Shown piece after piece: positions 3,876-64,000 of a stretch of 64,000 nucleotides of DNA. The stretch lies in contig CP084166.1 in the NCBI GenBank assembly GCA_021513695.1, forward strand, positions 1,088,001 to 1,152,000, read 5' to 3'. Below the pieces are notes generated by a model. The model had not been told where the DNA came from, searched no databases, and saw only the letters and a program-made list of their open reading frames with translations. The translations under genes and the position numbers were made by a program. This stretch comes from Candidatus Heimdallarchaeum aukensis (GTDB lineage: Archaea; Asgardarchaeota; Heimdallarchaeia; Heimdallarchaeales; Heimdallarchaeaceae). Position 1 is the first letter of the stretch. Every line of letters starts with the position of its first letter.

Positions 3876-4802
3876 GTGATGTACATGAACAAGTCGAAAA
3901 TTTTCGGAACACTCTTAATATTAACAATGGTAGGTTTGAGTTTAACATCCTCTTCATTAAGTAGTCTAGCTTATGATCAACTTGAAGAAGCTAATTCATT
4001 AAGAGCTACAACAGTCATAAAACCTCACGACATCATCAGCCAAGATTATCTCAACGCTTTTTCTTACTCCAGCCAAATTAGGGTTGGAAAACTCATTAAG
4101 TTTAAAGTTACAGAGCTTGAACGAACAGAGAATATTCATGTTCAAGAAGGAGATAAAAAGATAAAGAAAGGAGACAACATTATTATTAGAATCGAAGCTG
4201 ATCCAGATTTGAACCTAAACCACCCAGACCAATGGGCTCTAATTTATGTTAATGACGTTAAAGCTCTTTACACTAGAGAATCCTATCAAATTGCTCGTTT
4301 CTTCCATTACATATTACCAAAAACAGTAAATATCTCGATGGTTGATTTTGCTCAAGATTTAGATGGTTCTATGTTTGGAGATTATCCAATTGGAACAGAA
4401 GTAATCAGTTTCTTTGATTTTGTAAAATATTTCAAAGAAACAGGTGACCCAGACTTCCAAACATGGGAATTCGAAGGAAACACAGCTATTTATGAATATG
4501 ACCAAGTTATAGAAACAGGAAACACCTCACATACAAAATTGATCTACGATATGGATACAAGTTTCTTAAATGAATACTATTACTCTGAAGTTCATACTGT
4601 CAATGGTGAGGTAGTTGCTAGTGCTAACATGACATTAATTAGAACACACGGTTGGGGACTTCCATATAATGTCAGTACTTTAGTTGTGTGGATACCCATT
4701 ATGGTTTTCACATTAGGTATCATCATTGCTATCAGACTAAGAGTTGCACAAAGAATAAAAATCTACTTTGAAGCTAAAAAACTAGCAAAAAGAGAAGAAT
4801 AA
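3876..4802 (+). CDS. secreted/surface protein with C-terminal TM anchor and basic tail
   Basis: It has an N-terminal signal peptide and a C-terminal hydrophobic helix followed by RLRVAQRIK...KKLAKREE. No recognisable enzymatic motif. Confidence 0.5.
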   Translation: MMYMNKSKIFGTLLILTMVGLSLTSSSLSSLAYDQLEEANSLRATTVIKPHDIISQDYLNAFSYSSQIRVGKLIKFKVTELERTENIHVQEGDKKIKKGDNIIIRIEADPDLNLNHPDQWALIYVNDVKALYTRESYQIARFFHYILPKTVNISMVDFAQDLDGSMFGDYPIGTEVISFFDFVKYFKETGDPDFQTWEFEGNTAIYEYDQVIETGNTSHTKLIYDMDTSFLNEYYYSEVHTVNGEVVASANMTLIRTHGWGLPYNVSTLVVWIPIMVFTLGIIIAIRLRVAQRIKIYFEAKKLAKREE

Positions 4803-31120: not shown

Positions 31121-31298
31121 AAAATCAAATTAAAAATAATAAAAGAAGATATAAACGTTTACGATGGTTTACTTTTTCTGAAATACGAAATCATAGGAAA
31201 AAGTGAAAAAAGAAGAGAAGAAAGAAAAAAAAGAGGAAGGAGAAGAGGAGAGGAGAGGGAAAATGAGGGTTTTATATAGGGGAAAAAAGTAAGAAGAA

Positions 31299-32559
31299 AT
31301 GAAAGAAAAAATGAGTAGAAAGGTGTGGCGAACTGAGGAAATATGGGTGAAGGATTCGATCACTCTAAAACAGTTGGCACACAAGGTAAAAAACTTGTAT
31401 AATCAAGCAAATTATATTATTAAGTATCAGTTAAGAAAAAGTAAATATTTCACAAAAGAGTTTGAACTGATGAATATTTTAAGGTATCACCCGACTTACA
31501 CAGCTTTACCTGGTCATACGGCACAACGGACGATAAAGTTTCTATGTTTAGCGTGGAAAGGGTATTTTAGGTCTTTAGAAGAATGGAAAAAGGAACCAGA
31601 AAAGTTTAACGGTAAACCCTGTCCTCCAAGATATAAGAAGAAAGAAGGACTTGCTATAATCTATTTTACTAACTCTCAAGTGAAAATTAAAGAAGAAAAA
31701 GAACAAGAAAAAGAAAAATTTTTTATCTCTTTCCCTAAACGTGTAGGACTAAAGATAGTTACAAGACTGTCTCCTTCAACGAAAGTGAAGTTTGCCCGTC
31801 TCATACCTATGGGGACGAAGTTTAAATTAGAGATAGTTTACGAGAAAGAGGTAGAAGAACAAAAAAAAACGACATGCAGAAAGAGTTCTAGCTCTTGATC
31901 TGGGAGTGAATAATTTAGTCGCAGGTTTAACCACTATTCCAGGTGAAAAAGGTTTTCTGATAAATGGTAGACCCATTAAAGCTGTTAACCAGTGGTTTAA
32001 TAAACGTAGGGCAAAGTTACAGTCAATCTATGACAAGCAAGGATTAACCACCTGGGGAAGAAAAATGTTTCAACTCCAGTTAGAACGAATGTGTAAAATC
32101 ACCAACTATTTCCATAAAGCAAGTAGAAAAATAGTAGACTATTGTTCAGAAAAAAACATTGATACGATAGTTATAGGTTACAACCCCCGATGGAAACAAG
32201 AAGTGATTATGGGTAAAAAGAATAATCAAACCTTTGTTTTTATACCCTTCAAATCGCTAATTGACAAAATCACTTACAAAGCAGAAGAAAAAGGAATAAA
32301 AGTTCTTCCTACCGAAGAGTCCTACACCTCTGTCTACAGTTTCTTGGATAATGAAGAGATAGCTTTCCACCTCCATTATGCTGGTAAAAGAATCCATCGT
32401 GGACTATTTATCAGTACCAGAGGATTAAAAATTAATGCTGATATCAACTCTGCAGGTAATATCGGTCGCAAAGTATTCCCCACGTTATTCTCTGTTATGT
32501 CTAACTACGGGATAGTCTGGGGTGCAGTGGTTCACCCCGTCCGTTGGAAAATAAGTTAG
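31299..32559 (+). pseudogene. tnpB: tnpB (RuvC-like RNA-guided nuclease family), frameshifted in an A9 run near 31860
   Basis: Split across two ORFs (199 aa and 217 aa). RuvC-I ALDLGVNNL is visible in copy 2, and the RuvC-I region is at the frameshift in copy 1. RuvC-II is EESYTS and RuvC-III is NADINSAGNI. No CxxC...CxxC zinc finger lies between RuvC-II and RuvC-III. Confidence 0.6.
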
Positions 32560-32639
32560 TTAGTTGAGTTAGTTAGTCCAGCTCTTACGCTGTTCTTTCT
32601 TTCTCTTTATTTTTCGACCGACTAAACTTACTCTTTCTT

Positions 32640-32660
32640 CCGATTTTTAATCAAAATCGG
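32640..32660 (+). repeat. IS right-end subterminal hairpin CCGATTTT-TAATC-AAAATCGG
   Basis: Perfect 8-bp inverted repeat. The same hairpin is at 42803..42823 in copy 2. Confidence 0.6.
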
Positions 32661-32687
32661 AATTTGGGAAAAGGTAAACCATAAGGA

Positions 32688-33677
32688 TTAAGGTATAAGT
32701 CCCCAGAAAAAGGCTTCCAAAAGTTTTGTTTTGAACTCTTTAGTTGTAGAGTAACAGGAAGAGAAGAAAGCTACATTATCGAGTATATCTTGCAAATTGC
32801 TGAAAAATGCACCATATTCTACACTTAGCTTTTCAATATCGACGTTATAACGAATCAATACACCTATTTTCTTCAAGTTCTTTTTCTTAAGCAATGAATC
32901 CTTGAGTGATTGATATTTCTCTTTCATGATGTCTAGCATCAACAAGAGAACTTCTTGTTCATTAGCAATATCGCTATCAATCTCTTCTAAAGGAATAATT
33001 GAAAACTGGAAAGTTTTAGTTTTTATTATTCCTACCTCATCTTCAAATTTAACAAAGGTAAAAGGTAATGTTAAGAGCAAAGAGGCGAATGAGTTCTTTA
33101 TCTTTTCAACTTCTTTCTTTGAGTAAAGTAGAGCTATTTTTTTAACTTTAGTTTTAAATAATCCTTTACTAATAAGTTCTTTTAGTTCTTGAGTAAGAAG
33201 ATTTGCTTGTGAAACACTTAACAACTCTCTTACAATCCTTTCATATTCGTTAACAATACTTGTCAATAGTTTTTCATCTACTTGATCAATAGATTTAATG
33301 TTATGAAACTTATAAATGAGCAATTTAGCAAACTCTTCTCTAAAATCATCTATTTTGCTTACTATTTCAGGAACAAGACACAATAACAATCCTATGGTTT
33401 TCTTTTTCATTCTTTTATCTTGCATCGTAGGATCGTCAACTAGGAAAGAAAACGCATATTGAACAAATCCTTCAGAGAAGGCAAAAGGGAATGGTCCATA
33501 CAGTTCAGAAGATATTTCATCAATGTCAACTACACCTTGAAAAACAAGTGAATAGGTCATAGCTCCAGAGAACTCAAACTTATCTATTATCTCTTCTTCA
33601 AATTGAGTCTCTTCAGATGTTACCATTTGAGTTAATGCTGGACCTATATCTTCAAGTTTAAACAATGCTATAAGCAT
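32688..33677 (-). CDS. hypothetical 329-aa protein
   Basis: ORF only. Confidence 0.4.
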   Translation of the reverse strand: MLIALFKLEDIGPALTQMVTSEETQFEEEIIDKFEFSGAMTYSLVFQGVVDIDEISSELYGPFPFAFSEGFVQYAFSFLVDDPTMQDKRMKKKTIGLLLCLVPEIVSKIDDFREEFAKLLIYKFHNIKSIDQVDEKLLTSIVNEYERIVRELLSVSQANLLTQELKELISKGLFKTKVKKIALLYSKKEVEKIKNSFASLLLTLPFTFVKFEDEVGIIKTKTFQFSIIPLEEIDSDIANEQEVLLLMLDIMKEKYQSLKDSLLKKKNLKKIGVLIRYNVDIEKLSVEYGAFFSNLQDILDNVAFFSSCYSTTKEFKTKLLEAFFWGLIP

Positions 33678-40572: not shown

Positions 40573-41349
40573 ATGTCCCAGAAAAAAACTGAATTCCTTG
40601 AACCTGTTTTATCTAATGATTTAATAGTCACATTAAACGCTGCAATTGGTGAGCGAATGCTAATTTTAGCAGGCAGCTGTACAGCTTTTTTTGATGGAAG
40701 AATAAAGTCTACTTTAGAATTAGGAGAGAGGATATTAATAATTAAAAAAGACCTATCCATATTAATGCATGGAGTTTCAGGGGTAAAACCTTTAAATTGG
40801 CAAAAGCCAAATCAAGGGCCAATTTCATTTCTAAAAGAGAAAAATGAATTAGTTATGTACACAAAAAGGAAAAAAACAGAAGAAGAGTTATGGATTAGAT
40901 TTCGTTCTATTGATTTTGTTATTTTATGGTCAGGTAGCGATTTTTCTTCTTTAGAGATTTATGGGGATGAATCTGACCTTGTTCAATATCTCGTAAAACA
41001 TCCCTCAATAATTGAAAAGGATTTGCAAATTCTTTCTACAGAATACCCAACTGATGTAGGATTTGTTGACATTAAAGCTCTTGATAGCAAGAAAAGACTG
41101 ATTATTATTGAAGTAAAAAAACGTAACGCTACACCTTCAGATGCTTTTCAGTTAAAAAGATATAAGGACTATTTTGAAAATATCGAAAATAAAAAAATTA
41201 GAGCTATACTTGTTGCTCCTTCTTTCCCTGACAAAGTAAAAAAATATTTAGAGATAAATAACTTAGAATTTCAAGAAGTAGATTGGAAAAACATCTTTCC
41301 CACTATTTCTAGAGAAAAAAATATGAAAATTGATGATTTCTTTTTCTGA
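40573..41349 (+). CDS. nucS: NucS/EndoMS mismatch-specific endonuclease (RecB-like nuclease C-terminal domain)
   Basis: The 258-aa protein's C-terminal GFVDIKALDSKKRLIIIEVKKRNAT...FQLKRY matches the NucS D...E.K and QxxxY motifs. Its last codons and stop lie inside the left end of IS copy 2. Confidence 0.6.
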   Translation: MSQKKTEFLEPVLSNDLIVTLNAAIGERMLILAGSCTAFFDGRIKSTLELGERILIIKKDLSILMHGVSGVKPLNWQKPNQGPISFLKEKNELVMYTKRKKTEEELWIRFRSIDFVILWSGSDFSSLEIYGDESDLVQYLVKHPSIIEKDLQILSTEYPTDVGFVDIKALDSKKRLIIIEVKKRNATPSDAFQLKRYKDYFENIENKKIRAILVAPSFPDKVKKYLEINNLEFQEVDWKNIFPTISREKNMKIDDFFF

Positions 41350-42844
41350 AATTATGAAGTTATAGAAAAAGTTGAAAAAAGAAGAAAGAAAGGGAGAGGA
41401 AAGAAAGCGGAGGAGAGAGGAAAGGAGGGAAAATGAGGAGTTTAAATAGTGAAAAAAAGTAAAAATGAATGAATGAGAAAATGAGGAAAAAGGTGTGGCG
41501 AACTGAGGAAATATGGGGGAAAGAATCGATCACTCTAAAGCAGTTGGCACACCAGGTAAAAAACTTGTATAATCAAGCAAATTACATTATTAAGTATCAG
41601 TTAAGAAAAAGTAAATATTTCACGAGAGAGTTCGAACTGATGAATATTTTAAGGTATCACCCGACCTACACAGCACTACCTGGTCATACGGCACAACAGA
41701 CGATAAAGTTTCTATGTTTAGCGTGGAAAGGGTATTTTAGGTCTTTAGAAGAATGCAAAAAAGAACCAGAAAAGTTTAATGGTAAACCCCGTCCTCCAAA
41801 ATAGAAGAAGAAAGATGGACTTGCTATAATCTATTTTACTAACTCTCAAGTGAAAATTAAAGAAGAAAAAGAGCAAGAAAAAGAAAAATTTTTTATCTCT
41901 TTCCCTAAACGTGTAGGACTAAAGATAGTTACAAGACTGTGTCCTTCAACGAAAGTGAAGTTTGCCCGTCTTATACCTATGGGAACGAAATTTAAATTAG
42001 AGATAGTTTACGAGAAAGAGATAGAAGAACGAAAAAAACGACATGCAGAAAGAGTTCTAGCTCTTGATCTGGGAGTGAATAACCTTGTAGGCGGGTTAAC
42101 CACTATTCCTGGTGAAAAAGGTTTTCTGATAAATGGTAGACCCATTAAAGCTGTTAATCAGTGGTTTAATAAACGTAGGGCAAAATTACAGTCAATCTAT
42201 GACAAGCAAGGATTAAACACCTGGGGAAGAAAAATGCTTACTCTCCAGTTAGAACGAATGTGTAAAATAGCTGACTATTTCCATAAAGCAAGTAGGAAGA
42301 TAATAGACTACTGTTTAGAAAAAAACATTGATACGATAGTTATAGGTTACAACCCCAGATGGAAACAGAAAGTGAATATGGGAAAGAAAAATAACCAAAC
42401 CTTTGTTTTTATCCCCTTTAAATCCCTCATTGATAAAATCACTTACAAAGCAGAAGAAAAAGGGATAAAAGTTATTCCTACCGAAGAGTCCTACACCTCT
42501 GTCTGCAGTTTCTTAGATAATGAAGAGATAGCTTTTCACCCCCATTATGCTGGCAAAAGAACTCACCGTGGACTGTTCATCAGTACCAGAGGATTAAAAA
42601 TTAATGCTGATATCAACTCTGCAGGTAATATCGGTCGCAAAGTATTCCCCACGTTATTCTCTGTTATGTTTAACTACGGGATAGTCTGGGCTGCAGTGGT
42701 TCACCCCGTCCGTTGGAAAATAAGTTAGCAAGTTAAGTTAGTCCAGCTCTTATGCTGTTCTTTCTCTTTCTTTTTTTCCACCGACTAAACTTCCTCCTCC
42801 TTCCGATTTTTAATCTAAATCGGAATTTAGGAAAAAGTAAACCA
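41338..42844 (+). mobile_element. TnpB-only IS200/IS605-like element, copy 2
   Basis: Paralogous to 31172..32682. It has the same purine-rich left end and the right-end hairpin at 42803..42823. Confidence 0.65.
41469..42728 (+). pseudogene. tnpB: tnpB copy 2, interrupted by an in-frame TAG (PPK* instead of PPRYKKK) near 41802
   Basis: ORFs of 111 aa and 292 aa. RuvC-I LDLGVNNL, RuvC-II EESYTS and RuvC-III NADINSAGNI are intact, with no zinc finger. A 3-nt deletion plus substitution creates a stop relative to copy 1. Confidence 0.6.
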
Positions 42845-42860
42845 TGATTTTTTTTAAGAA

Positions 42861-43172
42861 TCATTCTGTTATACATTCTGCTTCAGGAATAATTATCCAA
42901 GCAATAACATATGCTATAAATAATGATGTCCCACTAGCAAAAAAAAGCAATATTGCCAGCAATCTAACCAATGAAACATCCATATTAGAATAGATCGCAA
43001 GTCCAGAACACACTCCGCCTAGTACTTTATTGTTAGCACATCTAAATAATTTATTTGATTGAGGGTAATAAGTCGAAGATGGAACGGTTTGCTCTTCTTC
43101 AAATTGGCGCCCACATTTTTGACAAAACAATGACCCCGGGGGGTTATCTGTACCACATTGTTCACAAATCAC
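42861..43172 (-). CDS. zinc-ribbon + PspC-domain membrane protein
   Basis: N-terminal CEQCG...CQKCG ribbon, then a PspC motif (NKVLGGVCSGLA-Y-N-DV-LVRLLAILL) and a TM helix. Confidence 0.6.
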   Translation of the reverse strand: MICEQCGTDNPPGSLFCQKCGRQFEEEQTVPSSTYYPQSNKLFRCANNKVLGGVCSGLAIYSNMDVSLVRLLAILLFFASGTSLFIAYVIAWIIIPEAECITE

Positions 43173-59496: not shown

Positions 59497-59571
59497 TGGT
59501 AGTCCCCAGGAGATTTGAACTCCTGCCCCCGGATCCAGAGTCCGGGATCCTTGCCACTAGACTAGGGGACT
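59497..59571 (-). tRNA. tRNA-Gln (anticodon CUG)
   Basis: The reverse complement folds as AGTCCCC/GGGGACT acceptor, CCGGA-CTCTGGA-TCCGG anticodon arm and AGGAG-TTCAAAT-CTCCT T arm, followed by ACCA. Confidence 0.8.
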
Positions 59572-59606: not shown

Positions 59607-59681
59607 TGGTAGTCCCCAGGAGATTCGAACTCCTGCCACCGGATTCAAAGTCCGGAATCCTTGCCGCTAGACTAGGGGACT
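59607..59681 (-). tRNA. tRNA-Gln (anticodon UUG)
   Basis: Same scaffold as the neighbouring tRNA, with anticodon loop CTTTGAA and T loop TTCGAAT. It lies 35 nt from the first tRNA-Gln. Confidence 0.8.
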
Positions 59682-59868
59682 TTTTATCTTAACTATTAGT
59701 CTTCTGTCGATTCTTTTTTTTAATTGTGTTTTAAACTTTTCTTTATCTACTATGCTTTATAAACTATTAAATTTTTTTGATTTTTTTCGACTTTTTTCTT
59801 TTTTTCTTTCTCTCATTCTTTTTCCTTATCAAAAAATAAATAAGAGTAAACTTACATTTTATATTATT

Positions 59869-61266
59869 ATGCTTATAAAAACTGGTATTAATGAGCTTGA
59901 CCAGATGATTGATGGTGGTTTACGTACCCATTATTGTTATTCTATCAAGGGTTCTGCTGGTGCTGGTAAGACTGTTTTATCTATTTTTCTTGCTTGGGGT
60001 GCTCTCAATCAGGACATCCCTGTTGTTTTTATTAGTACTGAGATTGAACCTGATCGTATTATTCATTATTTTCACTCTTTTGGTCTTCCTGTTGAGGACT
60101 ACATTGACCGAGGGTTATTAGTCATTGATAAGATGTCTTTGAAGTCTTCTGGTGAGGAGATTATCCAGACTAACAGTTTTGATTTATCAGGTATTATTTT
60201 ACGTGTTACTAAGAAGATTGAGCGTATTCGAGCTAAGTTGGTTATTTTTGATTCTCTTTCTGCTTTTATTGCTGACTTTGAGTATAAAGACACTGCCCGT
60301 AGTAAGTATATTGATTTTATTAAGCGCATTACTAGTTTAGATACTTCTTTAATTATTACTATTGAGTGTGACCCTATTACTAGCAGTTCTCAGATTGACT
60401 ATTTAGTTGACGGTGTTATTGCTTTAAAGACCGAATTAATCAACAATCAGCTAATCAAGAAGATTTCTGTTCCTAAATTAAGAGAAGCCAAGCCTTTAGT
60501 TTATGAAAACCGTTATACTATTACTCAGAAAGGTTTTAGGATTTTCAAATCTGAGAGCGAGCCTTTGTTTACCGTTGATCGTTCTACTGGTATTAAGGTT
60601 TTGGACAATCTTTTAGGTGGAGGTATTGCTCGAGGTTCTGTTGTTTTAGTTGAGATCAATGGTGAGATTAATTATTTTCCTTTCTTCTTGACTCTTCTTT
60701 ACAATTATTTAACTCTAAACCATGGTGTTATCATTCATTCCAATGTTCAGATGAATGTTAATCGTATTTTGGAGGAGTTTGAGCGAGGTCAGTGTGACAT
60801 TTCTGACTACTTACGTGATGGTAATATTGTCTTTTTGGATAAGTACAATCGTTCTGTCACTGCTGTTGAAGCTAAAGAGATTCGTGATATGATTAACTTA
60901 GATGACATGTTAGCTATTACTGTTGAGATGATGCAGGCTTTTGGTTCTGACACTGAAGTTGTTGTTTTTGGTGATCTTACTGATGATGTTAACATTTTGA
61001 ATGAGCGTGATTTCTTAAAATTGTTTGCTCTTCAGTCTTACAACATTAAGGAGCATAATGCTATTTCCTTTTCTTTTATCAATTACAATGCTGTTGACAA
61101 AAAAATTCTCGCTCGTTTACGTACCACCTCTGATGTTATCATTCGTTTATCGCGTGAAAATTATTCTAACTACATTGAATGTTTGAAGAGCACTACTGGT
61201 GCTACATTTCTTGCTAAGAATATTGAATTTAAAAAAAGTTATCCTATGATTGAAATTGTTGAGTGA
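59869..61266 (+). CDS. KaiC-family double RecA-domain ATPase
   Basis: First domain is GINELDQMIDGGL ... IKGSAGAGKTVLS. Second domain is GIKVLDNLLGGGIARGSVVLVEINGE. The ORF track starts at 59752, but the first 39 codons are a hydrophobic low-complexity stretch. Confidence 0.65.
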   Translation: MLIKTGINELDQMIDGGLRTHYCYSIKGSAGAGKTVLSIFLAWGALNQDIPVVFISTEIEPDRIIHYFHSFGLPVEDYIDRGLLVIDKMSLKSSGEEIIQTNSFDLSGIILRVTKKIERIRAKLVIFDSLSAFIADFEYKDTARSKYIDFIKRITSLDTSLIITIECDPITSSSQIDYLVDGVIALKTELINNQLIKKISVPKLREAKPLVYENRYTITQKGFRIFKSESEPLFTVDRSTGIKVLDNLLGGGIARGSVVLVEINGEINYFPFFLTLLYNYLTLNHGVIIHSNVQMNVNRILEEFERGQCDISDYLRDGNIVFLDKYNRSVTAVEAKEIRDMINLDDMLAITVEMMQAFGSDTEVVVFGDLTDDVNILNERDFLKLFALQSYNIKEHNAISFSFINYNAVDKKILARLRTTSDVIIRLSRENYSNYIECLKSTTGATFLAKNIEFKKSYPMIEIVE

Positions 61267-63373: not shown

Positions 63374-64000
63374 CTATTACTAGCAGTTCTCAGATTGACT
63401 ATTTAGTTGACGGTGTTATTGCTTTAAAGACCGAATTAATCAACAATCAGCTAATCAAGAAGATTTCTGTTCCTAAATTAAGAGAAGCCAAGCCTTTAGT
63501 TTATGAAAACCGTTATACTATTACTCAGAAAGGTTTTAGGATTTTCAAATCTGAGAGCGAGCCTTTGTTTACCGTTGATCGTTCTACTGGTATTAAGGTT
63601 TTGGACAATCTTTTAGGTGGAGGTATTGCTCGAGGTTCTGTTGTTTTAGTTGAGATCAATGGTGAGATTAATTATTTTCCTTTCTTCTTGACTCTTCTTT
63701 ACAATTATTTAACTCTAAACCATGGTGTTATCATTCATTCCAATGTTCAGATGAATGTTAATCGTATTTTGGAGGAGTTTGAGCGAGGTCAGTGTGACAT
63801 TTCTGACTACTTACGTGATGGTAATATTGTCTTTTTGGATAAGTACAATCGTTCTGTCACTGCTGTTGAAGCTAAAGAGATTCGTGATATGATTAACTTA
63901 GATGACATGTTAGCTATTACTGTTGAGATGATGCAGGCTTTTGGTTCTGACACTGAAGTTGTTGTTTTTGGTGATCTTACTGATGATGTTAACATTTTGA
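63374..64000 (+). repeat. exact direct duplicate of 60374..61000 (internal KaiC-like gene segment), offset exactly 3000 bp, truncated by window end
   Basis: Base-for-base identity over 627 bp. The antisense ORFs 60807..60995 and 63807..63995 are identical. Confidence 0.9.

What the first reader, a model, noticed from the sequence alone, without database searches (positions are those of the whole stretch)
31172..32682. Two diverged copies of a TnpB-only IS200/IS605-type element whose TnpB lacks the canonical zinc finger; both copies are inactivated differently
Copies at 31172-32682 and 41338-42844 share about 90% identity including their non-coding ends. These comprise a purine-rich left end and a right end with a perfect subterminal hairpin (CCGATTTT-TAATC-AAAATCGG), where the reRNA/omegaRNA scaffold of TnpB systems would be encoded. 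TnpB has intact RuvC-I (DLGVNNL), RuvC-II (EESYTS) and RuvC-III (NADINSAGNI), but no CxxC...CxxC finger between RuvC-II and RuvC-III. Copy 1 carries a frameshift in an A9 homopolymer. Copy 2 carries a 3-nt deletion plus substitution creating TAG. That means independent decay, or possibly programmed slippage in copy 1. Copy 2 has inserted so that its left end supplies the last codons and the stop of the NucS gene.
Basis: seen in the sequence. Interest (0 to 1): 0.5.

Follow-up and report, generated by a model that had tools for sequence, protein, structure and literature searches.

The report
Decayed TnpB-only transposon copies in Heimdallarchaeum
Two broken copies of a small mobile element that carries only an RNA-guided nuclease gene (TnpB) sit in this Asgard archaeon's genome; the missing zinc finger is normal for their whole TnpB clade, so the finding is largely ordinary, apart from inverted-repeat ends that fit neither textbook transposon family.

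Summary
The two copies are real: 31166-32682 and 41335-42845, 90.6% identical overall. The window comes from Ca. Heimdallarchaeum aukensis. Each copy encodes a 419-aa TnpB with one lesion. Copy 1 has an extra A in an A9 run. Copy 2 has TAT>TAG at codon 112, with no 3-nt deletion. dN/dS of 0.16 shows both lineages were functional until recently.

The zinc finger is absent, but across the whole clade: 60 of 60 relatives lack CxxC, and such losses are already published. The canonical RuvC-II glutamate is replaced by glycine. "EESYTS" holds the relocated glutamate, as in the published RIIr-5/Ealt type.

Relatives are linked to IS607-type serine recombinases (16-17 of 80 loci) and never to Y1 TnpA. 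The ends form a 15-21 bp terminal inverted repeat flanked by AT. An orthologous empty site holds a single AT.

The 3' end folds into a three-hairpin omegaRNA-like scaffold that distant relatives share. The genome holds at least four copies, all broken, and one shares copy 2's stop codon. An intact copy exists in H. endolithica.

Copy 2 does supply NucS's last codons and recreates its PCNA-binding motif. Overall this is a decaying member of a known kind with modestly unusual ends.

The parts
31166..32682 (+). Copy 1 of the TnpB-only element (1517 nt), lying in a ~50-nt spacer between two minus-strand genes
   Evidence: Homology with four other independent insertions starts and ends here. Pairwise alignment with copy 2.
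31161..31165 (+). Left flank of copy 1, ACGAT. This is the TAM-like position. Its last two bases (AT) are the dinucleotide shared by both junctions.
   Evidence: The five left flanks read ACGAT, TTGAT, TTGAT, TTGAT and AGGAT.
31164..31184 (+). Left terminal inverted repeat, ATGGTTTACTTTTTCTGAAAT (includes the flanking AT)
   Evidence: It matches the reverse complement of 32662-32682 at 14/15 (18/21) positions. Only 1 of 62,481 window positions at that spacing reaches 13/15 or more. The pattern scan found 6 matches against 1.1 expected by chance.
31196..31262 (+). Purine-rich (GA) spacer of the left end. It evolves fast (left non-coding part 70% identical between the copies).
   Evidence: Read directly from the sequence; identity.
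31271..31278 (+). TTTATATA, a candidate archaeal TATA box about 25 nt upstream of the tnpB ATG. Copy 2 has TTTAAATA at 41441-41448.
   Evidence: Read from the sequence. Its role as a promoter is inferred, not tested.
31299..32559 (+). tnpB pseudogene of copy 1. It gives 419 aa once one A is removed.
   Evidence: Repair and translation. Pfam OrfB_IS605 and Cas12f1-like_TNB; NCBIfam guided_TnpB 147 bits against a cut-off of 100.
31861..31869 (+). A9 homopolymer carrying the +1 frameshift
   Evidence: Copy 2 has GAAAAAAA here, and L001 has GAAAAGAAGAG.
31897..31899 (+). RuvC-I Asp200 (LALDLGVNNL)
   Evidence: Invariant in alignment A2.
32176..32178 (+). Gly293, at the position of the canonical RuvC-II glutamate (TIVIGYN)
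   Evidence: Invariant in A2. G in 45 of 45 relatives where the motif was detected. It aligns with the E of MEDL in AsCas12f. Lies in model strand 289-294.
32317..32319 (+). Glu340, the relocated (Ealt-type) RuvC-II glutamate in TEESYTS
   Evidence: Nearly invariant in A2. Relatives show E.[YH]TS. It lies just beyond model strand 334-339. The arrangement is described in PMC10691335 and PMC10711439.
32320..32427 (+). Former zinc-finger region (aa 341-376) without CxxC pairs
   Evidence: The CxxC pairs of 8j12 align to YSFLDNEE and FIS-TRG. Model confidence here is low, pLDDT 55-70.
32440..32442 (+). RuvC-III Asp381 (NADINSAGNI, the NADxN type)
   Evidence: The NADXN motif marks the 'derived' clade in PMC10691335.
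32519..32682 (+). Predicted omegaRNA scaffold: HP1 (inside the ORF's 3' end), HP2 (long-range stem), HP3 (hairpin at 32640-32660) and a single-stranded tail AAACCAU
   Evidence: Consensus fold of five copies, and a single-sequence fold with z = -3.0. Eighteen distant relatives fold independently into the same topology. Covariance model R1 matches both copies.
32662..32682 (+). Right terminal inverted repeat, ATTTGGGAAAAGGTAAACCAT
32683..32702 (+). Flank that would be read as copy 1's guide (AAGGATTAAGGTATAAGTCC). It overlaps the stop codon of the 329-aa minus-strand gene.
   Evidence: Position relative to the right end. The guide role is inferred from known TnpB systems.
41335..42845 (+). Copy 2 of the element (1511 nt), inserted in the last codons of nucS
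   Evidence: Comparison of the filled site with the empty site in L007/L008; boundaries.
41330..41334 (+). TTGAT left flank of copy 2, the inferred TAM
   Evidence: The empty site reads AAAATTGAT|GATTTTTTTTAATC.
41335..41349 (+). Degenerate left end GATTTCTTTTTCTGA, which encodes NucS residues D-F-F-F plus the stop
   Evidence: ORF 40573-41349. The native C-terminus is KIDDFF* in ortholog P0122. The left inverted repeat matches at only 10/15 here.
41469..42728 (+). tnpB pseudogene of copy 2: 419 codons, in frame throughout
41802..41804 (+). Premature TAG at codon 112 (TAT in copy 1)
   Evidence: TAG is an ordinary stop codon here, ending 7 of 40 long ORFs. Genome copy 3 (P0205) stops at the same codon.
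42688..42845 (+). Predicted omegaRNA scaffold of copy 2 (hairpin 42803-42823, one mismatch) and the right inverted repeat at 42825-42845
42846..42865 (+). Flank that would be read as copy 2's guide (GATTTTTTTTAAGAATCATT). It is the displaced native 3' end of nucS.
   Evidence: In the empty site, TTGAT lies directly 5' of this sequence.

Best explanation
These are two old, separately diverged copies of a non-autonomous insertion sequence in Ca. Heimdallarchaeum aukensis. The element is about 1.5 kb and carries only tnpB.

The nuclease belongs to a large, already described TnpB clade with three marks:
- The canonical RuvC-II glutamate is replaced by glycine.
- A relocated glutamate sits on the next strand (the 'Ealt' / RIIr-5-like arrangement), while RuvC-I keeps the ordinary D-hydrophobic-G form (DLG).
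- The C4 zinc finger has been lost.

By analogy with studied TnpB systems, the likely workings are as follows (inferred):
1. The gene is transcribed from a TATA box about 25 nt upstream of the ATG.
2. The 3' part of the transcript (three hairpins plus the tail AAACCAU) becomes the omegaRNA scaffold.
3. The flanking 16-20 nt serve as the guide.
4. The complex cuts empty sites that carry TTGAT next to the guide match, which helps the element to be retained.

The element cannot move itself. It would be moved in trans, most likely by an IS607-type serine recombinase that crosses over at the AT dinucleotide between the inverted-repeat ends (inferred, about 50% confident).

Both window copies are now dead or crippled by single recent lesions: a +1 A, and TAT>TAG. 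The TAG arose before that lineage was copied again elsewhere in the genome.
For: Shown:
- The copies and their boundaries come from five independent insertions and one orthologous empty site.
- TnpB family membership. The fold resembles Cas12f, TnpB and Fanzor2.
- dN/dS is 0.16 (dS 0.21), and 52 of 82 differences fall at third codon positions. The divergence therefore happened under purifying selection and the lesions are recent.
- Gly at the canonical Glu position, the relocated Glu, no CxxC and NADxN hold across the clade. The published descriptions match.
- The only recurrent neighbour of related tnpB genes is a Resolvase + MerR-HTH serine recombinase, in 16-17 of 80 loci. No Y1 family appeared.
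- The terminal inverted repeat matches at 14/15 (18/21), unique among 62,481 window positions at that spacing. AT sits at both junctions in 5 of 5 insertions, and the empty site has one AT.
- The three-hairpin 3' structure folds with z = -3.0, and 18 relatives of 35-46% protein identity share the topology with different stem sequences.
- The genome holds at least four copies, all broken. Copy 3 stops at the same codon 112. An intact copy exists in H. endolithica (L001 = P0204).
- Widespread disruption of solo tnpB genes in archaea has precedent in Haloquadratum.
Against: - No transposase of any kind is present in the element or in the window.
- None could be tied to Heimdallarchaeum; the TnpA profile search was uninformative.
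- Described IS607 elements end in GG and have no terminal inverted repeats, so the serine-recombinase reading rests on relatives at only 35-46% identity and on the symmetry of the ends.
- The closest Heimdall relatives examined are all solo.
- omegaRNA, TAM, promoter and nuclease activity are predictions. Covariance model R1 found only weak matches in distant loci, and no formal covariation statistic was obtained.
- TTGAT is present at only 3 of 5 left flanks.
Confidence: 0.8

Rival explanations
1. This is a classical IS200/IS605 (IS1341-group) element, moved as single-stranded DNA by a Y1 (HUH) TnpA encoded elsewhere. It inserts 3' of the motif TTGAT, and the right-end hairpin is the TnpA recognition structure.
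For: - There is no target-site duplication beyond AT.
- Insertion lies next to NNGAT/TTGAT in 5 of 5 and 3 of 5 cases. TTGAT is also the ISDra2 motif (own knowledge).
- The right end has a strong subterminal hairpin.
- Solo tnpB elements are conventionally filed in this family.
- IS200/IS605 is the commonest IS family in Asgard genomes (PMC13343696).
Against: - The ends are 15-21 bp terminal inverted repeats. IS605-type elements are described as lacking them.
- The left-end DNA hairpin is weak, with z from -0.4 to -2.0.
- The right-end hairpin is equally well explained as omegaRNA hairpin 3, which distant relatives also have.
- None of 80 related loci has a Y1 gene, while 16-17 have a serine recombinase.
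Confidence: 0.25
2. The lesions are assembly or sequencing errors, and both genes are intact and active.
For: - Homopolymer length is error-prone.
- Nanopore reads were used to scaffold this genome, and the DNA for those reads was amplified by MDA (PMC8813620).
- The strong purifying-selection signal shows the genes were functional until recently.
Against: - The H. aukensis contigs were assembled from Illumina reads with SPAdes. Nanopore reads served only for scaffolding.
- The TAG is a substitution, not a homopolymer change, and an independently assembled third copy has a stop at the same codon.
- All four copies seen in this genome are broken, and related copies in other assemblies carry their own deletions.
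Confidence: 0.08
3. The lesions are bypassed. Transcriptional or ribosomal slippage on A9 restores copy 1's frame, and the TAG of copy 2 is read through or recoded, or the two halves work as a split protein. The copies would then still make some active TnpB.
For: - Long A-runs are known slippage sites in IS elements (own knowledge).
- The TAG-bearing lineage was copied at least once after it gained the stop.
Against: - The A-run is not conserved. Copy 2 has GA7 and L001 has a different sequence. A programmed site would be conserved.
- TAG ends 7 of 40 long ORFs in the window, so it is a normal stop codon.
- TnpB is not needed for transposition in studied families (PMC6188088), so copying of a dead gene needs no read-through.
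Confidence: 0.05
4. The copies are domesticated TnpB derivatives with a host function, such as regulation, rather than transposon genes.
For: Exapted TnpBs are known (PMC10691335). Some Heimdall relatives, such as P0030, sit at one fixed locus in many samples.
Against: - The catalytic residues are kept.
- The ends are conserved, there are several insertion sites, and an empty site exists.
- The genes are interrupted, and no partner gene is conserved next to them.
Confidence: 0.02

Closest known systems
TnpB clade with a rearranged RuvC-II: 'RIIr-5' of Altae-Tran et al. 2023 (PMC10691335), and the 'Ealt' clade with a D-hydrophobic-G RuvC-I of Yoon et al. 2023 (PMC10711439)
   Same: - Glycine at the canonical RuvC-II glutamate.
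- An alternative glutamate a few residues before the zinc-finger position.
- RuvC-I reads DLG.
- Members are associated with IS607-type serine recombinases.
   Different: The C4 zinc finger is absent here and in all sampled relatives. [quoted passage not shown] The Heimdall members are solo genes. I inferred clade membership from motifs and built no phylogeny.
IS607-family transposons (serine recombinase TnpA plus TnpB; IS607, IS1535, ISXfa1)
   Same: - No target duplication.
- The same dinucleotide at both junctions, and once in the empty site.
- An inverted repeat between the two ends.
- Related TnpBs have such a TnpA directly upstream.
   Different: - There is no tnpA in the element.
- The dinucleotide is AT, not GG.
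- The inverted repeat is exactly terminal and 15-21 bp long, whereas IS607 elements are described as having no terminal inverted repeats.
ISDra2 TnpB-omegaRNA (IS200/IS605; PDB 8EXA, 8H1J)
   Same: - Size, domain order and fold (Foldseek E 1e-10).
- The guide RNA is encoded across the gene's 3' end and the right end.
- The inferred flanking motif TTGAT equals the ISDra2 TAM (own knowledge).
   Different: ISDra2 has the canonical glutamate, DRDxN in RuvC-III, a C4 zinc finger, a Y1 TnpA partner and no terminal inverted repeats.
IS1341-type solo tnpB elements of haloarchaea (Haloquadratum walsbyi, Natronomonas; PMC3119063)
   Same: They are solo tnpB genes in several diverged copies. In Haloquadratum most are disrupted by frameshifts, in-frame stops and internal deletions: 83 of 100 and 77 of 82.
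   Different: Those elements have IS605-type palindromic ends without inverted terminal repeats, and Y1 TnpA genes are present in the same genomes.
Fanzor2 and cyanobacterial 'pro-Fanzor' TnpBs
   Same: Relocated RuvC-II glutamate. IS607 lineage. Structural similarity to Fanzor2 9b0l (E 1.6e-9).
   Different: Fanzors have DPG at RuvC-I and keep the zinc finger. This protein has DLG and no finger. Fanzors did not appear in the sequence-level PDB searches.

Membership tests
TnpB (OMEGA RNA-guided nuclease) | Sequence-family membership (OrfB_IS605 and TNB domains; the NCBIfam guided_TnpB model) | tested here: met
   PF01385 E 3.7e-20. PF07282 31.6 bits, above its cut-off of 26.3. NF040570 147 bits, above its cut-off of 100.
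TnpB (OMEGA RNA-guided nuclease) | RuvC D-E-D catalytic triad | tested here: met
   D200 and D381 sit at the canonical positions. The glutamate is present only at the relocated position (E340), and the canonical position is G293. The triad is therefore met in the published 'rearranged' form, not the canonical one. Catalysis was not tested.
TnpB (OMEGA RNA-guided nuclease) | C4 zinc finger between RuvC-II and RuvC-III | tested here: not met
   There is no CxxC pair in either copy, in the 22-sequence alignment, or in 60 of 60 relatives. The literature treats the finger as common but dispensable.
TnpB (OMEGA RNA-guided nuclease) | Structured guide RNA encoded over the gene's 3' end and the right end, ending at the transposon boundary | tested here: inconclusive
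   The predicted three-hairpin fold has z = -3.0, and 18 relatives share the topology. There is no expression data and no formal covariation test. Rfam has no match.
TnpB (OMEGA RNA-guided nuclease) | Conserved motif (TAM) in the left flank, which in the empty site lies directly 5' of the sequence matching the guide | tested here: inconclusive
   NNGAT in 5 of 5 and TTGAT in 3 of 5 left flanks. The empty site shows TTGAT directly 5' of the sequence that flanks the right end. Cleavage specificity was not tested.
IS200/IS605 (Y1 transposase family, including the IS1341 group) | Y1 (HUH) TnpA in the element or linked to relatives | tested here: not met
   None in the element. No recurrent Y1-like neighbour in 80 related loci.
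IS200/IS605 (Y1 transposase family, including the IS1341 group) | No terminal inverted repeats; asymmetric ends | tested here: not met
   The terminal inverted repeat matches at 14/15 (18/21).
IS200/IS605 (Y1 transposase family, including the IS1341 group) | Subterminal hairpins at both ends | tested here: inconclusive
   The right-end hairpin is strong. The left end has only a weak A/T stem, -3 to -5.5 kcal/mol with z from -0.4 to -2.0.
IS200/IS605 (Y1 transposase family, including the IS1341 group) | No target-site duplication; insertion 3' of a short motif | tested here: met
   Filled-site versus empty-site comparison. Only the AT dinucleotide is common to both junctions.
IS607 (serine recombinase family) | Serine recombinase TnpA (N-terminal HTH plus Resolvase domain) upstream of tnpB | tested here: not met
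   Absent from the element and from the window. Present next to 16-17 of 80 related tnpB genes.
IS607 (serine recombinase family) | Identical dinucleotide at both transposon-host junctions, once in the target, and no duplication | tested here: met
   AT in 5 of 5 insertions, and a single AT in the empty site. Described members use GG.
IS607 (serine recombinase family) | [quoted passage not shown] | tested here: inconclusive
   Here the repeat is exactly terminal. In relatives L024/L031 and L066/L080, the inverted copy of the right terminus lies about 7-20 nt inside the left end, as described for IS607.

The most novel reading that the evidence does not exclude
The element may represent an undescribed subgroup of serine-recombinase-mobilised TnpB transposons in Asgard archaea.
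- Its ends are symmetric: a 15-21 bp terminal inverted repeat.
- The joined ends (GTAAACC-AT-GGTTTAC...) would form a near-perfect palindromic crossover site centred on AT, unlike the asymmetric GG-ended IS607 elements.
- It carries a compact nuclease with no zinc finger and a relocated glutamate.

A second, smaller novelty is possible. Copy 2's left end may have mutated after insertion so that it rebuilds the PCNA-binding tail of the mismatch-repair nuclease NucS.
Probability: 0.35. Interest if true: 0.45.

Novelty: new variant of a known kind. Interest (0 to 1): 0.3.

Why it matters
Mostly it does not change anything. Solo tnpB elements, their decay in archaeal genomes, zinc-finger-less TnpBs and relocated RuvC glutamates are all published.

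Three points have modest value:
1. They correct the family assignment. This widespread Asgard and methanogen TnpB clade travels with IS607-type serine recombinases, not Y1 transposases, and the Heimdall members have true terminal inverted repeats. If a serine recombinase is confirmed, that would widen the known range of end architectures for such transposons.
2. A 419-aa TnpB with no zinc finger, an inferred TTGAT motif and an intact relative (P0204 in H. endolithica) is a concrete candidate for testing whether the finger is dispensable for RNA-guided cleavage.
3. The nucS junction is a tidy natural example of an insertion tolerated because the transposon end recreates an essential C-terminal motif.

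Tried and rejected
- Programmed slippage at A9 was rejected, because the run is not conserved in other copies.
- TAG recoding was rejected, because TAG ends 7 of 40 long ORFs.
- A 7-bp target duplication (ATGATTT) is seen at copy 2 only. It was rejected because no other insertion has it.
- A TA duplication of the IS630/mariner type was rejected, because the flanks read AT, not TA.
- Covariance model R1, built from the close copies, found only weak matches at the tnpB 3' ends of distant loci L050 and L071 (E about 0.01).
- MAFFT plus RNAalifold on distant right ends recovered only hairpin 1, because the stems are too diverged to align by sequence. I used independent folds instead.
- Fetching the DNA of genome copies 3 and 4 failed: P0213 and P0212 are 'not on record'.
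- L089 and L090 turned out to be one locus, so they gave no boundary information.
- I looked for an inverted copy of the L011 right terminus upstream of its tnpA and found none.
- A generic inverted-repeat scan of the serine-recombinase loci was no better than chance.
- A profile search with the serine TnpA returned 7879 IS607-like proteins, but no Heimdallarchaeum name appeared among the 120 listed. It was uninformative.
- A near match to the inverted repeat at 33394-33408 is a chance T-rich stretch inside an ORF.
- Rfam had no family match within either element.
Full report
**What is there.** The window holds two direct copies of a ~1.5-kb element on the + strand. NucS from the window is 100% identical to the protein of Ca. 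Heimdallarchaeum aukensis, on a 3,081,793-bp contig, so that is the source genome.

Related copies were recovered from H. endolithica (L001) and from Heimdallarchaeaceae metagenome contigs (L002-L006). Together they give five independent insertion sites. All five share the same first and last bases:
- left junction: ...GAT | G(G/A)TTT...
- right junction: ...GTAAACCAT | flank

A NucS ortholog (P0122, 88% identical) lies in the same gene neighbourhood as in the window (ZnuA, Fe-dependent repressor, ABC-3, ABC ATPase, NucS, PspC-like, DAGK). It has no element, so it is an empty site. It reads AAAATTGAT|GATTTTTTTTAATC. This fixes copy 2 at 41335-42845 and copy 1 at 31166-32682.

Identity between the two copies:

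| Region | Identity |
|---|---|
| Whole element | 90.6% |
| CDS | 93.5% |
| Left non-coding part | 70% |
| Right non-coding part | 85% |

**The gene and its lesions.** Removing one A from the A9 run at 31861-31869 gives a 419-aa ORF in copy 1. Copy 2 is in frame over all 419 codons but has TAG at codon 112, where copy 1 has TAT.

The repaired proteins match OrfB_IS605, the TNB domain and NCBIfam 'guided_TnpB' above their cut-offs.

Between the copies, 52 of 82 nucleotide differences fall at third codon positions. dN/dS is 0.16 (dN 0.034, dS 0.21), and it is similarly low before, between and after the two lesions. The two lineages therefore diverged as working genes, and the lesions are late events.

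- The A-run is not conserved. Copy 2 has GA7 and L001 has GAAAAGAAGAG. This argues against programmed slippage.
- TAG ends 7 of 40 long ORFs in the window, so it is an ordinary stop codon.
- The H. aukensis contigs were assembled from Illumina reads and only scaffolded with Nanopore reads (PMC8813620). A homopolymer error is therefore possible but not likely.

**Other copies.** Cluster look-ups show at least four copies in the H. aukensis genome, all split.

| Copy | Proteins | State |
|---|---|---|
| 1 (window) | P0208 | +1 frameshift in A9 |
| 2 (window) | P0203 | stop at codon 112 |
| 3 | P0205 + P0213 | N-terminal fragment ends at the same ...GKPRPPK; the C-terminal fragment differs from copy 2's by only two residues |
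| 4 | P0212 | split, and also has LALVLG (RuvC-I Asp to Val) |

The stop at codon 112 therefore predates the split of copies 2 and 3. A dead tnpB was still copied. This fits the known fact that TnpB is not needed for transposition (PMC6188088).

H. endolithica has an intact copy (L001 = P0204; only in-frame indels). The metagenomic copies L002, L004, L005 and L006 each carry their own deletions. Mass decay of solo tnpB genes has been described in Haloquadratum, where 83 of 100 and 77 of 82 are disrupted (PMC3119063).

**The catalytic site and the zinc finger.** D200 (DLG) and D381 (NADINSAGNI) sit at the usual RuvC-I and RuvC-III positions. There is no CxxC...CxxC between them. In alignments to Cas12f structures, the two CxxC pairs fall on YSFLDNEE and FIS-TRG.

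This is not special to the element. The 22-sequence alignment spans Heimdall, Promethearchaeota, Methanophagales, Methanohalobium and a spirochaete, and it shows the same pattern. Among the 80 metagenomic relatives (35-56% identical), all 60 with a recognisable RuvC-III motif had no CxxC. Altae-Tran et al. [quoted passage not shown]

The canonical glutamate position is in fact TIVIGYN:
- Gly293 is invariant.
- It is G in 45 of 45 relatives.
- It lies in strand 289-294 of the AlphaFold model (pLDDT 82).

Glu340 of TEESYTS lies just beyond the next strand (334-339). This is the published rearrangement. RIIr-5 is described as 'glutamate replaced with glycine' with an alternative glutamate on beta-5. 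Yoon et al. call the same thing 'Ealt'. With DLG rather than DPG at RuvC-I, the protein belongs to the Ealt group with a D-hydrophobic-G motif, not to the pro-Fanzor group.

Foldseek puts AsCas12f, ISFba1 TnpB, ISDra2 TnpB and Fanzor2 among the best matches, with no special closeness to Fanzor.

**Which transposon family?** I clustered every ORF in the 80 related loci.
- One neighbour family recurred: a ~200-aa protein directly upstream of tnpB on the same strand, in 16-17 loci. It has MerR-type HTH and Resolvase domains, and its homologs are named IS607 family transposase.
- No Y1 family appeared.
- L012 and L014 are 5'-truncated derivatives that still carry the 3' end of that tnpA.
- The Heimdall relatives P0005 and P0030 are solo genes.

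The ends of the window element are inverted repeats:
- left end with its flanking AT: ATGGTTTACTTTTTCTGAAAT
- reverse complement of the right end: ATGGTTTACCTTTTCCCAAAT

They match at 14/15 (18/21) positions. Copy 2's right end matches copy 1's left end at 15/15. Only one of 62,481 window positions at that spacing reaches 13/15, and it is the element itself.

AT lies at both junctions in all five insertions and once in the empty site. Joined ends would read ...GGTAAACC-AT-GGTTTACY..., a near-palindrome centred on AT. That is the geometry of a serine-recombinase crossover site; gamma-delta resolvase also cuts at a central AT (own knowledge).

Neither textbook family fits fully:
- IS200/IS605 elements have no inverted terminal repeats. 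The left-end DNA hairpin here is weak.
- IS607 elements are described as ending in GG, with no terminal inverted repeats, only an imperfect inverted repeat at varying distances from the ends.
- Relatives L024/L031 and L066/L080 show that IS607-like pattern.

I therefore file the element as a solo-TnpB transposon of an IS607-linked TnpB clade with an unusual, exactly terminal inverted repeat. The transposase remains unidentified.

**The guide RNA.** The last ~164 nt of each copy fold into four parts:
1. a hairpin inside the end of the ORF (GGGGUG...CACCCC);
2. a long-range stem (GUC.GU.GGAAAA / UUUUCC.AC.GAC);
4. a free tail, AAACCAU.

The z-score is -3.0 against shuffles. Among the five close copies only one pair shows a double change, because they are too similar.

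Eighteen relatives of 35-46% protein identity were folded one by one. All give the same order of three hairpins plus a short tail (AUAACCU or AACUAUA), with quite different stem sequences. This supports a conserved RNA but is not a formal covariation test.

By analogy with ISDra2 and ISXfa1, the flank after CCAT would be the guide. In the empty site, TTGAT lies directly 5' of that sequence, as the homing model requires. The left flanks read TTGAT three times, ACGAT once and AGGAT once. A TATA-like box sits about 25 nt before the ATG in all copies. Promoter, RNA, TAM and cleavage are all inferences.

**The nucS junction.** Nearly all NucS orthologs carry K(L/I)(D/E)(D/E)FF at or near the C-terminus. 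This is the PCNA-binding tail needed for NucS activation (PMC8228993). The closest ortholog ends KIDDFF*.

In the window the insertion falls after KID, and the element supplies DFFF*. Copy 2's left end (GATTTC-TTTTTCTGA) differs from the family consensus (GGTTTACTTTTTCYGA) by a G>A change and a 1-nt deletion. Those two changes are exactly what creates Asp-Phe-Phe-Phe-stop. With the consensus end, the protein would run on as KIDGLLFLKYEII....

The same changes degrade the inverted repeat to 10/15. Selection for a working NucS tail after insertion is a reasonable reading, but it is unproven.

**Verdict.** The interpretation needs correcting on the RuvC-II motif, on the transposon family, on the novelty of the missing zinc finger, and on the history of the TAG. 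The element is a decaying member of a known kind with modestly unusual ends.

Noticed in passing
window 60374-61000 and 63374-64000: An exact 627-bp repeat with a start-to-start spacing of exactly 3000 bp. The second copy runs off the end of the window. The first copy lies inside a 504-aa KaiC/RecA-like ORF (59752-61266). No tandem array was detected, and the sequence upstream of 60374 is unrelated at that offset. It could be a recent partial gene duplication or an assembly artefact.
   Followed up: partly
window 32640-32660 and 42803-42823; L001 about 4319-4339; L006: The right-end hairpin is present as exact reverse complements in different copies. Copy 1, copy 2 and L005 have CCGATTTTTAATCAAAATCGG. 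L001, L002, L003 and L006 have CCGATTTTGATTAAAAATCGG. The loop is flipped while the stem is kept. This suggests hairpin-templated inversion, and that the loop sequence is not important.
   Followed up: partly
window 41324-41349 (end of nucS) and 42846-42857: Copy 2's mutated left end recreates the conserved C-terminal PCNA-binding motif of NucS: KIDDFF* natively, KID+DFFF* now. The displaced native end, GATTTTTTTTAA, still lies just after the right end.
   Followed up: partly
L004, L005 and L006, relative to CDS nucleotides 726-1011: Related copies carry different internal deletions in one region: 70 nt from position 899 in L006, 111 nt from 901 in L005 and 91 nt from 726 in L004. L004 and L005 sit at the same insertion site, and L004 also lacks 18 nt of the right end. 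This may be recurrent repeat-mediated deletion, as proposed for Haloquadratum, or assembly noise.
   Followed up: no
L012 2432-2500 and L014 214-260, compared with L011 1581-1666: Two apparently solo tnpB loci keep different lengths of the 3' end of an IS607-type tnpA. They are 5'-truncated remnants of a full two-gene element, not complete solo transposons.
   Followed up: partly
window 59497-59571 and 59607-59681 (minus strand): Two adjacent tRNA-Gln genes (anticodons CTG and TTG), 92% identical and 110 nt apart.
   Followed up: no
window 31196-31262 and 32585-32640 (likewise in copy 2): The left end is a long purine (GA) tract and the right end a pyrimidine (CT) tract, so the two are partly complementary, for example GAAGAAAGA / TCTTTCTTC. 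The purine tract lies upstream of the putative TATA box, so pairing at the RNA level seems unlikely. Its purpose is unknown.
   Followed up: no
L089 about 1560-1660 and L091 about 2232-2305: In more distant Heimdall relatives (P0005, P0030) the solo tnpB sits next to a sequence that looks like a tRNA gene. P0030 occupies the same locus in six samples, so it looks fixed rather than mobile.
   Followed up: no
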